Assembly: GCF_048403405.1 (NCBI RefSeq)
Contig: NZ_CP183129.1
Reading direction: 5' to 3' (one strand)
DNA: 64,000 nt
Origin: Escherichia coli
GTDB taxonomy: Bacteria > Pseudomonadota > Gammaproteobacteria > Enterobacterales > Enterobacteriaceae
Within the stretch, counting starts at the first letter, position 1. Each line of letters starts with the position of its first letter. The position numbers were made by a program. Positions 18,001 to 21,000 of the stretch are shown here, piece after piece.

Positions 18001-21000
18001 TAATCATACAGCAACTATATGAATTATATTATTGACTAAATTTAATTCTTTCATCATAGTTGACATGGCTATTTTATATCAATAGAGGTGATTTATGCAA
18101 AACAGAAAATTTTTAACGCATCATGAAATTAATTTACTACTTCAATCTGTAAAACAAAAGAGTTGCTCTTCACGCGATGTTTGCATGATTTTATTGGCTT
18201 ATTTTCATGGTCTGCGTGTTAGTGAGCTCTTATCTCTGCAGTTGTCGGATTTAGAACTAACTACAGAAAAAATATATATTCAACGGATAAAAAATGGATT
18301 CAGTACAGTCCATCCACTTCAAAAGGAAGAGGTGATTGCAATAACAAACTGGCTGAATGAAAGGAATTCATTAAATGTTAAACATTTCAATGATAACCCG
18401 TGGTTATTTGTTTCCCGAACAGGAAAACCATTATCGAGACAACGATTTTATAACATAGTTTCTGCTGCGGGTAAAAATGCAGGTTTAAATATTAAAGTTC
18501 ATCCACATATGTTACGCCATGCATGTGGTTATTCACTAGCAGATAATGGTGTGGATACCCGTCTTATTCAGGACTATCTCGGGCATCGTAATATCAGGCA
18601 TACGGTAATTTATACTGCTTCTAATTCAATGAGATTTGAAAAAATGTGGGGGAGAGGTGACGCAAAAAAGCAACATTTTGACCCAAAATGTAAACCCAAT
18701 CTTTGTTTAGAAATTCTCGTATAGAAAAACATTTTTTTCTATAAAAAACATTAAATTTACTGATTTAGATCAATATGTGACGTCAATCTACACATAAAGA
18801 GGTAGGTTTGTCTTCTTTTTAATCTTTGGCGTATAAAGCCAAAATGTAAATAATAATCAAAATTATATTCTGAATTAAAATAAATACGCAGGTTTTTTAC
18901 CTGCGTTTTGTGCTATTTATAGTTAATTAAATTGATGTTGTCAAAATGGGTCATTTTGTAAACCTGTGCCTCAAGGTTTGTCTCCCCCCGGTGTGCAAAG
19001 CAAAAGGAAATTGGGAAAGGGGATAACAGGAAATTGATTGCATGGTTTTGATTACGACGACAAAAAATATTTTTTTAATTCAAGCAATTAAGAGTATGCG
19101 TTGGCGGGGTTTTTCGTACGTGAAAGTCATCGCTGTGGACGACTATTCTTCTCTGATTCGTGATTTTGGCACATCTTGCTTTCGGGATGAGCAATCGTTG
19201 TTGTTACCTGTATTCCCTGATAATGATTCTACTACCTGTATACGCTCACTGTATTTCATTCACCAATGGCTAAAAAGCCAGCCTGTCAATATTCCGTGCC
19301 TGGCATGGGGGGATAATGGTGTAGTTAGTAATAAAGGCATACCTTTCATACCGTGGAAATTAACAGCAGAGCAATTTTGTTTCTATATAGATAAATTTAT
19401 CAATGGCTGGAGGTGCAAAAAAAATATTCGCGCGAATCATAAAGTTTCTTTTTTAGAACGACAATTATCCCCGAGGGAGAAAAGTATCTTTATATATACC
19501 AAGGAAGGAAAAGATATTGCATGGATCTCGAACACCTTGGGTATATCCAGTAAGACTGTGTGGACGCATCGTCGTAGAGCTATGGATAAACTCGGGGTAA
19601 AACGTTTACATCAATTTATAAATATTCCGCGTTCCCTTATTAGTGAAAATATTCAATTTTAATGTACGTTCAAGAGTATTAGTGTTATGAATAAAATATA
19701 TAAAGTCATTTGGAACCATACAACCCAAAAATGGGATGTTGTTTCAGAATTGACGAGTTGTAGAAAAAAATGTAAATCAACTCGCTTAGGAATTGCTTTA
19801 TCAGCAATGGTTCTGGGGGGCGCTATTGCAATTAATTGCAATAGCGCAATGGCAGATGTCATATTGTCACCAGACTGGCGTCCGGGTACGAATAAATCGG
19901 GTGTTGGGGCTGCAACAGTAAGTGGTAAAACCGAATACATCACTGGTCCAAATGTCGTCCAGTCTGGTGGGTCAGGTCTTATCTGGATGACTGTAGAACA
20001 GGCAATTTTAAATGGCTACACCACTGGAGATAATTTATCCGGATTGATTTACGTCAATACCGGAGAAAAAACAAAAACCATTACAGTGAAGGATGAGGTT
20101 ACTGGCGCTTCTCAAACACTTCAAGTGTTTGATACTGACTCTTTCTCACAACGCGATGCGGGGACTGGGGGAAATGAAACCATTCCTGGTTTTAGTGGCA
20201 CTGCGGATTTTTTCAATGCGACACGTTTTGTAACAGCCAATAATGGCGGTACAGCTATTTTGGATGTGGGTTCACCAGCAATCGGTAATTTTTTTAAAAA
20301 TACACAGCTTGCTGTAGCTGATGGAGAAGGTTCCTCTGTTGTATGGAACTCGGTCAATGATTTTTATTTTCAGCCTGGTGCAACCATGCAGGGGGGCGGC
20401 GTTACTCAAAAAATCATTGACTCAATGAAATATGCTGGAACAATTACTGATTGGGCGGGAAAAGTACACCATATTAACTCTCTTGATGATTTAAAGCAAT
20501 ATAATCAATATTTGATAAAGTCACTAGAGGACAAAACGCTATCTTATAAGCAGTATGATGCTGAATTTAATAAGGCCCTTATTGTCACTAAGCATAATTA
20601 CAATGTAGATATGACCGCAGGGGGACGCATAGACTCAACTCCTTACAAAGAAAATGTAGGGCTGCTTGCTGTTCTCCATGCAACCAATAATGCACGAGCA
20701 ATATTAGGTAAAACGGGTAAATTAACTGGAGTTCTTCCTGCCTATGGGAATGGAGGAGGGATCGTTGCAACTAATGGTGGGACTGGTGTTAATGAAGGGG
20801 TCATTGATGCCATTGGTACTGAAATGATTGCCTATCAAGACAGTACCATTGTTAACGATGGTACACTTTTTGTTTGGGATAATAATGATAAATATGCTCT
20901 CCAGGCAGAGGGGATGGTTGCCGGTAGTAATGGTTCTTCAGCCATTAATAATGGTGTTATTAATATTCGCCCATTTAAAAATGCTTTCGCTCCAGAGGGG

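What the first reader, a model, noticed from the sequence alone, without database searches (positions are those of the whole stretch)
18679..18953. Candidate invertible promoter switch next to fim-type recombinases
Perfect 7-bp inverted repeats TGACCCA (18679-18685) and TGGGTCA (18947-18953) bound a 261-bp segment, each within a near-palindromic CATTTTG/CAAAATG context. Inside is a near-consensus sigma70 promoter (TTGACA-17 bp-TATAAA, minus strand, 18915-18944) pointing away from the LuxR regulator and autotransporter, plus a plus-strand hairpin terminator (18886-18909). This orientation therefore looks OFF for the downstream genes; inversion would aim the promoter at them. This fits my recollection of the ipuS switch in uropathogenic E. 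coli, but the exact published boundaries are not confirmed here.
Basis: partly seen in the sequence, partly recalled or inferred. Interest (0 to 1): 0.85.

Follow-up and report, generated by a model that had tools for sequence, protein, structure and literature searches.

The report
Known ipuS phase switch, OFF state
This is the already published ipuS invertible DNA switch of uropathogenic E. coli, sitting in its OFF orientation; it flips to turn on a regulator (ipuR) and an adhesin (upaE), so it is real but not new.

Summary
TGACCCA (18679-18685) and TGGGTCA (18947-18953) flank 261 bp between a fim-type recombinase gene (ipuA) and ipuR-upaE.

This is the ipuS phase switch described in E. coli CFT073 (Battaglioli 2018, PMC6083910; confirmed in PMC6458436). 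Every published landmark that can be checked on the sequence reproduces:
- The ipuA-ipuR spacer is 317 bp.
- The distal repeat lies inside ipuA.
- In-silico inversion shortens IpuA by 11 aa with a terminal K-to-F change.
- The published reverse primer matches exactly.
- The PacI fragments are 186 bp as found and 407 bp after inversion.
- CFT073 differs at only 6 of the 261 bp, and its repeats are identical.

The window is in the OFF state. So are all 236 complete E. coli genomes and all 21 metagenome contigs that carry the element.

The published 5' RACE start site lies in the ipuA-derived end of the switch, behind a weak 4/6 + 4/6 promoter. After inversion it would fire straight into the hairpin.

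Novelty: already known. Interest is low.

The parts
18679..18685 (.). Distal inverted repeat of ipuS (TGACCCA), inside the 3' end of the ipuA coding sequence
   Evidence: The position inside ipuA matches PMC6083910. It is identical in CFT073.
18947..18953 (.). Proximal inverted repeat of ipuS (TGGGTCA), 88 bp upstream of the ipuR start codon
   Evidence: Identical in CFT073. The surrounding context is intact in all 21 metagenome contigs that cover both ends of the switch.
18679..18953 (.). ipuS invertible element: 275 bp including both repeats, 261 bp between them; here in the OFF orientation
   Evidence: In-silico inversion gives IpuA 209 -> 198 aa with ...DPK -> ...DPF. It also moves the PacI site so that the fragment changes from 186 to 407 bp. 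Both results equal the published values.
18095..18724 (+). ipuA, a FimB/FimE-family tyrosine DNA invertase (209 aa, full length = OFF form); its last 46 bp, stop codon included, lie within ipuS
   Evidence: ORF. NCBIfam NF007370 'tyrosine-type DNA invertase' scores 251 bits against a cutoff of 221. RefSeq names it ipuA in a genome that is 100% identical over 18300-19400.
16778..17347 (-). ipuB, the second tyrosine DNA invertase (189 aa), divergently oriented from ipuA
   Evidence: ORF. NF007370 scores 204.9 bits, E 9e-61, below the curated cutoff of 221. RefSeq names it IpuB.
18713..18745 (-). Most likely position of the published ipuS promoter. Two overlapping candidates, each 4/6 + 4/6: TTTATA-16-TATACG (18745->18718) and TAGAAA-17-GAGAAT (18741->18713). 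Their predicted start sites fall at about 18704-18713, inside the ipuA-derived part of the switch.
   Evidence: The candidate scan on the inverted sequence found these as the only 4/6 + 4/6 sites whose predicted start falls inside the ipuA-derived part of the switch, where PMC6083910 places its 5' RACE site behind a promoter matching 4 of 6 in each hexamer. The published figure was not available, so the exact hexamers are inferred.
18886..18906 (.). Symmetric G+C-rich hairpin (ACGCAGGT-5 nt-ACCTGCGT) with an A-rich run on one side and a T-rich run on the other; terminator-like on both strands
   Evidence: scores it as terminator-like on both strands. One search gives -14.8 and -13.0 kcal/mol, z about -4.5. 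It is intact in 20 of 21 metagenome alleles. PMC6083910 does not contain the word 'terminator'.
18916..18944 (-). It is not the mapped promoter. In the ON state its TGA would become the stop codon of truncated ipuA.
   Evidence: The -10 hexamer is polymorphic: TACAAA in CFT073 and TGTAAA in a third allele. Only 118 of 235 genomes are identical over 18896-18960.
18923..18930 (.). PacI site (TTAATTAA) used in the published orientation assay
   Evidence: it lies 186 bp from the end of the reverse primer (19092-19113) as found, and 407 bp after inversion.
19042..19662 (+). ipuR, a LuxR-type helix-turn-helix regulator (206 aa); first gene controlled by the switch
   Evidence: ORF. The C-terminal HTH matches LuxR/FixJ-type regulators weakly. 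It lies 317 bp after the ipuA stop, as published.
19687..27600 (+). upaE, an AIDA-I-type autotransporter adhesin (2637 aa, intact ORF); second gene controlled by the switch
   Evidence: ORF. Autotransporter beta-barrel domain TIGR01414 scores 396.6 bits. RefSeq calls it 'phase-variable autotransporter adhesin UpaE'.

Best explanation
The segment is ipuS, the third fim-type invertible promoter element of extraintestinal pathogenic E. coli, in its OFF orientation.

How it works:
- Tyrosine invertases recombine the two 7-bp inverted repeats and flip the 261 bp between them. These are the adjacent IpuA and IpuB, and in trans FimE, FimX and (weakly) FimB.
- In the orientation seen here, the promoter inside the element points leftward, antisense into ipuA. 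ipuR-upaE is silent and ipuA encodes the full 209-aa enzyme.
- After inversion the promoter sits just upstream of the proximal repeat and transcribes ipuR and upaE. IpuA loses its last 11 residues but, per the paper, stays active.

What was shown here: the anatomy, the identity with the CFT073 element, the OFF state, and the predicted consequences of inversion.

What is taken from the two papers, which worked on CFT073 and not on this strain: physical inversion, the start site, and the ON/OFF expression and phenotypes.

What is my inference: the symmetric hairpin probably ends ipuA transcripts in both orientations. In the ON state it would lie upstream of the mapped promoter, insulating the operon from ipuA read-through.
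For: - Gene order is dsdC / ipuB / ipuA / switch / HTH regulator / UpaE. RefSeq uses those names in a genome 100% identical over 18300-19400.
- Published landmarks reproduced on the window: the 317-bp ipuA-ipuR spacer, the distal repeat inside ipuA, and an inversion that removes 11 aa with a terminal K-to-F change.
- The published reverse primer matches exactly at 19092-19113. The PacI fragment is 186 bp as found and 407 bp after in-silico inversion, equal to the published OFF and ON sizes.
- Direct alignment with CFT073 shows the same spacing of the repeat contexts (268 bp), identical repeats and 17-bp contexts, and 6 substitutions in the 261 bp.
- Both recombinase ORFs are intact and match the tyrosine DNA invertase subfamily NF007370 (E 6e-75 and 9e-61). 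IpuA scores above the curated cutoff and IpuB below it.
- An independent study re-sequenced the breakpoints and confirmed the 7-nt repeats. It saw inversion with each of the five recombinases. ipuR rose about 1,600-fold and upaE about 33-fold on IpuB overexpression.
- Two 4/6 + 4/6 promoter candidates lie exactly where the paper places its start site.
Against: - No inverted copy was found. All 236 complete E. coli genomes with the element, and all 21 metagenome contigs covering both ends, are assembled in the OFF orientation. Inversion in this particular strain is therefore inferred. A consensus assembly reports only the majority state, so this does not argue against switching.
- The 7-bp repeats are not above chance on their own.
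- The paper says 260 bp. Both the window and CFT073 have 261 bp between the repeats, which I take to be a counting difference.
- The promoter hexamers are inferred, because the published figure could not be read.
Confidence: 0.95

Rival explanations
1. One reading: the near-consensus TTGACA-17-TATAAA site (18944->18916, minus strand) is the promoter that drives ipuR-upaE after inversion.
For: It is the best sigma-70 match in the element at 11/12, a level reached by 2.7% of shuffles. It points away from ipuR now and would point toward it after inversion.
Against: - The only 5' RACE product from the locked-ON strain maps to the ipuA-derived end of the switch, behind a 4/6 + 4/6 promoter. That is about 200 bp from this site.
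- The -10 hexamer lacks the conserved final T.
- The hexamer reads TACAAA in CFT073, where ON expression was measured, and TGTAAA in a third allele. Only 118 of 235 genomes are identical over 18896-18960, against 203 of 236 over the other end of the switch.
- After inversion its predicted start (ON coordinates 18721-18725) is followed at once by the hairpin (18726-18746) and AUUUAUUUUA.
Confidence: 0.08
2. Control by a terminator instead of a promoter: ipuR-upaE is expressed by read-through from the ipuA promoter, and the orientation of the element decides whether the hairpin blocks it.
For: There is a strong hairpin between ipuA and ipuR. The authors themselves raised this possibility.
Against: - The hairpin is symmetric and scores as terminator-like on both strands, so it should block in either orientation.
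- 5' RACE found a start site inside the element in the ON strain only.
- The locked strains carry a 404-bp 5' truncation of ipuA and still show ON/OFF behaviour.
Confidence: 0.03
3. In this strain the element is a fixed remnant: the repeats are a chance pair or the system no longer inverts.
For: Seven-base inverted repeats are common in this AT-rich region. Every assembly examined is OFF.
Against: - The repeats and their contexts are identical to those of CFT073, where inversion was sequenced twice.
- ipuA and ipuB are intact ORFs.
- Nothing separates this allele from the working one at the crossover sites.
Confidence: 0.03

Closest known systems
ipuS of E. coli CFT073 (Battaglioli et al. 2018, mBio, PMC6083910; Russell et al. 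2019, mSphere, PMC6458436)
   Same: It is the same locus. The 7-bp repeats and 17-bp contexts are identical, the spacing is the same, and the flanking genes are ipuB, ipuA, ipuR and upaE. The predicted effect on IpuA and the PacI assay geometry also match, and 255 of the 261 internal bases are identical.
   Different: - Six substitutions lie inside the element.
- IpuA carries one coding-sequence difference, at 18654.
- upaE is an intact 2637-aa ORF here, whereas the CFT073 RefSeq record marks it as frameshifted.
- A prophage follows the island in this window.
fimS, the type 1 fimbrial switch of E. coli
   Same: Both are short invertible promoter elements bounded by short inverted repeats and flipped by FimB/FimE-family tyrosine invertases encoded next to them. 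According to PMC6083910, FimE and FimX act on both switches and the half-sites are similar.
   Different: - fimS is 314 bp with 9-bp repeats (my own knowledge; the 9 bp is also given) and controls fimbrial genes.
- In ipuS the distal repeat lies inside the recombinase gene, so inversion changes the enzyme's C-terminus.
- No match to the IHF consensus WATCAANNNNTTR was found in 18600-19050.
hyxS, the FimX-linked switch controlling the LuxR-type regulator HyxR
   Same: It is an invertible promoter element next to a fim-type recombinase, and it controls a LuxR-type regulator gene.
   Different: hyxS has 16-bp repeats and is inverted only by FimX. It sits on a different island and has no autotransporter downstream.

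Membership tests
ipuS (CFT073-type invertible element) | A pair of 7-bp inverted repeats, the distal one inside the ipuA coding sequence | tested here: met
   TGACCCA at 18679-18685 lies inside ipuA (18095-18724), and TGGGTCA is at 18947-18953.
ipuS (CFT073-type invertible element) | Lies in the 317-bp spacer between ipuA and ipuR, with ipuB upstream and upaE downstream | tested here: met
   The spacer 18725-19041 is 317 bp. Gene names come from RefSeq in a genome that is 100% identical over 18300-19400.
ipuS (CFT073-type invertible element) | Inversion removes 11 C-terminal residues of IpuA and changes the new terminal residue from K to F | tested here: met
   In-silico inversion takes IpuA from 209 aa (...HFDPKCKPNLCLEILV) to 198 aa (...HFDPF), as in the Fig. 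1C legend quoted.
ipuS (CFT073-type invertible element) | Asymmetric PacI site giving the published OFF and ON fragment sizes | tested here: met
   The reverse primer matches exactly at 19092-19113. The fragment is 186 bp as found and 407 bp after inversion, against the published 186 and 407.
ipuS (CFT073-type invertible element) | Sequence identity with the CFT073 element | tested here: met
   Aligned with NC_004431.1: 6 substitutions in 261 bp, no indel, and identical repeats and contexts.
ipuS (CFT073-type invertible element) | Both orientations physically occur | not testable with these tools
   A single assembled sequence shows only one state. No ON copy was found in 236 complete genomes or in 21 metagenome contigs. 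Inversion was shown experimentally in CFT073.
ipuS (CFT073-type invertible element) | An internal promoter whose start site lies in the ipuA-derived part of the element and drives ipuR-upaE in the ON state | tested here: inconclusive
   Two 4/6 + 4/6 candidates lie at the right place, consistent. No transcript data exist for this strain, and the published figure could not be read.
fim-type tyrosine-recombinase promoter inversion switches | An adjacent FimB/FimE-family tyrosine DNA invertase | tested here: met
   IpuA scores 251.2 bits on NF007370 (cutoff 221). IpuB scores 204.9 bits, E 9e-61, below the cutoff but with the same subfamily as its best hit.
fim-type tyrosine-recombinase promoter inversion switches | Half-sites around the repeats resemble those of fimS and hyxS, so recombinases are shared between switches | not tested
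   fimS and hyxS are not in the window. The similarity and the cross-activity are reported in PMC6083910 Fig. 2C and PMC6458436.

The most novel reading that the evidence does not exclude
Two features of ipuS are not discussed in the 2018 paper.

(a) A conserved, symmetric terminator-like hairpin (18886-18906). It would end ipuA transcripts in both orientations, and in the ON state it would separate the two promoter-like sites.

(b) An allele-dependent second promoter-like site. It reads TTGACA-17-TATAAA here and in roughly half of the carrier genomes, and TACAAA in CFT073.

In addition, in the OFF state the mapped promoter points antisense through the whole ipuA gene.

The most novel reading still open is that switch orientation feeds back on recombinase expression, through antisense transcription and through the changed 3' end. 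Strains with the TATAAA allele might also express the operon or a short RNA differently from CFT073.
Probability: 0.15. Interest if true: 0.3.

Novelty: already known. Interest (0 to 1): 0.1.

Why it matters
ipuS is one of three switches in uropathogenic E. coli that share a pool of fim-type recombinases. Its ON state produces the UpaE adhesin, lowers motility and favours kidney colonisation in mice (PMC6083910).

Finding it in this window only shows that the strain carries the ipuA-upaE island with an intact switch in the OFF state. That is useful for annotation and strain typing. It does not open a new question.

Two small additions come out of this check. The promoter a reader would pick by eye is not the mapped one. 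And public assemblies uniformly capture the OFF state.

Tried and rejected
- **ON-orientation copies in complete genomes.** I built the inverted sequence and searched 5,426 complete E. coli genomes. None of the 236 carriers has it.
- **ON-orientation copies elsewhere.** One degenerate junction pattern that matches both orientations was scanned against metagenome contigs. It gave 56 hits, 23 of them true ipuS, and all were OFF. The same pattern against one genome per species gave only a chance hit in an alphaproteobacterial MAG.
- **Published forward primer.** It has no exact match in the window. The nearest match has 2 mismatches, at 16186. In CFT073 the two primers lie 2,928 bp apart. The published 1,289-bp product therefore fits only the recombinase-deleted locked strains, so the mismatch says nothing against identity.
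- **IHF consensus.** A scan for WATCAANNNNTTR across 18600-19050 found nothing.
- **Small ORFs in the element.** The scan found nothing of note.
- **Outer 8-bp G+C-rich inverted repeat.** I considered GGGGGAGA (18648-18655) / TCTCCCCC (18981-18988) as an alternative crossover site. I rejected it because CFT073 carries a T at 18654, which breaks the repeat.
- **Published promoter hexamers.** They could not be read, because figures are not held.

Full report
**1. The observation**

- TGACCCA occupies 18679-18685 and its reverse complement TGGGTCA occupies 18947-18953. There are 261 bp between them, or 275 bp counting both arms.
- Each arm sits in a near-palindromic context: CATTTTGACCCAAAATG at 18674-18690 and CAAAATGGGTCATTTTG at 18942-18958.
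- The minus strand carries TTGACA (18944->18939), a 17-nt spacer and TATAAA (18921->18916).
- A hairpin of 8 pairs with a 5-nt loop spans 18886-18906.

These features differ in how far they exceed chance.
- The region is 31% G+C. Between 18600 and 19050 there are 17 perfect 7-mer inverted pairs 100-500 bp apart. Dinucleotide shuffles give 13.2 +/- 5.4, and 23% of shuffles reach 17. The repeat alone proves nothing.
- An 11/12 promoter match appears in 2.7% of shuffles of the element. The site lacks the final T of the -10 hexamer, so the consensus scan did not list it.
- The hairpin is clearly non-random: -14.8 and -13.0 kcal/mol on the two strands, z about -4.5.

**2. What it is**

The ORFs around the segment are listed below.

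| Coordinates | Strand | Length | Identity |
|---|---|---|---|
| 16778-17347 | - | 189 aa | ipuB, tyrosine DNA invertase |
| 18095-18724 | + | 209 aa | ipuA, tyrosine DNA invertase; contains the left repeat |
| 19042-19662 | + | 206 aa | ipuR, helix-turn-helix regulator |
| 19687-27600 | + | 2637 aa | upaE, autotransporter |

- NCBIfam places both small proteins in the 'tyrosine-type DNA invertase' subfamily NF007370. The 209-aa protein scores 251 bits (cutoff 221). The 189-aa protein scores 205 bits, E 9e-61, just below the cutoff.
- The large protein has an autotransporter beta-barrel domain.
- Over 18300-19400 the window is 100% identical to several complete E. coli genomes. RefSeq names the genes there ipuB, ipuA, a helix-turn-helix regulator and 'phase-variable autotransporter adhesin UpaE', downstream of dsdC.

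**3. Match to the published ipuS element**

Battaglioli et al. 2018 (PMC6083910) describe ipuS in strain CFT073. Their landmarks and the window compare as follows.

| Published landmark | Result on the window |
|---|---|
| 317-bp spacer between ipuA and ipuR | 18725-19041 is 317 bp |
| 7-bp inverted repeats, the distal one inside ipuA | 18679-18685 lies inside ipuA (ends at 18724) |
| OFF state encodes full-length IpuA | 209-aa ORF present |
| ON state removes 11 aa, terminal K to F | Inverting 18679-18953 changes ...HFDPKCKPNLCLEILV to ...HFDPF (209 to 198 aa) |
| Reverse primer AAAACCCCGCCAACGCATACTC | Exact match at 19092-19113 |
| PacI fragments of 186 bp (OFF) and 407 bp (ON) | The single PacI site (18923) gives 186 bp as found and 407 bp after inversion |

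I also fetched the CFT073 locus itself (NC_004431.1) and aligned it.
- The two repeat contexts are 268 bp apart in both sequences.
- The repeats and their 17-bp contexts are identical.
- The 261 internal bases differ at six positions: 18775, 18778, 18780, 18826, 18854 and 18919.

The published '260 bp' is therefore a counting difference and not a length difference.

A second group re-sequenced the breakpoints and confirmed the 7-nt repeats (PMC6458436). They found that all five Fim-type recombinases invert ipuS. On IpuB overexpression ipuR rose about 1,600-fold and upaE about 33-fold.

The window thus holds ipuS in the OFF state.

**4.

- The paper's only 5' RACE product came from the locked-ON strain. 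[quoted passage not shown]
- The part of ipuS that belongs to ipuA is 18686-18724.
- On the inverted sequence, exactly two 4/6 + 4/6 candidates have predicted starts inside that stretch. In window coordinates on the minus strand they are TTTATA-16-TATACG (18745->18718) and TAGAAA-17-GAGAAT (18741->18713). I take one of these to be the published promoter, but I could not see the figure.
- Its -10 hexamer is the most variable spot in the element. It reads TATAAA here, TACAAA in CFT073 and TGTAAA in a third allele. Among metagenome contigs the counts are 5, 13 and 3.
- Only 118 of 235 complete genomes are identical over 18896-18960. By contrast, 203 of 236 are identical over 18672-18760.
- The geometry also argues against it. 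After inversion its start would fall at ON coordinates 18721-18725. The hairpin follows immediately at 18726-18746, then AUUUAUUUUA.
- The hairpin is symmetric. The mapped promoter lies downstream of the hairpin in the ON state.

**5. How it most likely works**

*Shown here:* the anatomy, identity with the CFT073 element, the OFF state, two intact recombinase genes, and the coding consequence of inversion.

*Taken from the two papers on CFT073:*
- IpuA, IpuB, FimE, FimX and (weakly) FimB invert the element.
- A promoter inside the element drives ipuR-upaE in the ON state only.
- The ON state gives surface UpaE, reduced motility, more adherence to kidney cells and a competitive advantage in mouse kidneys.

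*My inferences:*
- The hairpin ends ipuA transcripts in both orientations. It lies 162 nt after the full-length stop codon in the OFF state and about 35 nt after the truncated stop codon in the ON state. It keeps ipuA read-through out of the operon.
- In the OFF state the mapped promoter points antisense through ipuA, which could feed back on recombinase expression.
- The 2018 paper does not use the word 'terminator' at all.

**6. Search for the other orientation**

- I built the ON sequence and searched all complete E. coli genomes. All 236 carriers (of 5,426 genomes) match it only as split pieces with the middle on the opposite strand. None is assembled ON.
- A junction pattern that matches both orientations found 23 true ipuS contigs in metagenomes. 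Twenty-one of them cover both ends, and every one is OFF.
- The same pattern found nothing relevant among one genome per species.
- Assemblies report the majority state, so this shows that OFF predominates. It does not show that the switch is frozen.

**7. Verdict**

The identification as ipuS, the boundaries and the OFF call are correct. The promoter assignment is not supported. The feature is already known and named in RefSeq, so interest is low.

The residual open points are minor:
- the unreported hairpin;
- the allele-dependent second promoter-like site;
- possible antisense control of ipuA.

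Noticed in passing
window 28614-64000 (tRNAs at 44971-45126): From about 28614, just past the OmpH-family gene that follows upaE, the window carries prophage-like DNA. Matching regions in other genomes are annotated with terminase, replication and S24 peptidase genes, and there is an adjacent tRNA-Asn/tRNA-Thr pair. Strains 4621 and CFT073 have a tRNA-Arg at this point, but no tRNA-Arg is detected anywhere in the window. 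This suggests a prophage integrated at that tRNA.
   Followed up: partly
window 18886-18906: The symmetric hairpin inside ipuS is terminator-like on both strands and conserved in 20 of 21 metagenome alleles. It is not mentioned in the paper that describes ipuS.
   Followed up: partly
   Followed up: yes
window 18648-18655 and 18981-18988: An outer 8-bp G+C-rich perfect inverted repeat (GGGGGAGA / TCTCCCCC) brackets ipuS, 23 and 27 bp outside the 7-bp repeats. It is unusual for a 31% G+C region. CFT073 has a T at 18654, so it is probably not functional.
   Followed up: partly
window 17348-18094 (ipuB-ipuA intergenic region): This region has 28 differences from CFT073 in 747 bp, 13 of them clustered in 17501-17574. 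The flanking ipuB and ipuA coding sequences differ at only 2 and 1 positions. A divergent patch therefore lies where the two recombinase promoters should be.
   Followed up: no
L002 7816-15767 (CFT073 NC_004431.1) versus window 19687-27600: RefSeq annotates upaE as a frameshifted pseudogene in the CFT073 record, the strain in which UpaE was studied. In the window it is an intact 2637-aa ORF.
   Followed up: no
NZ_CP135712.1 (strain TUM1586), region matching window 18300-19400; metagenome contig L055 from about window 18800: One complete genome has an IS200C-family element inserted within the ipuA-ipuS-ipuR stretch. One metagenome contig diverges from ipuS after about position 18800. Both are possible natural disruptions of the switch.
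   Followed up: no
window 16186-16205; L002 (CFT073): The published forward primer for the ipuS orientation assay lies 2,928 bp from the reverse primer in wild-type CFT073. The stated 1,289-bp product therefore fits only the ipuB/ipuA-deleted locked strains. The window has 2 mismatches to this primer.
   Followed up: yes
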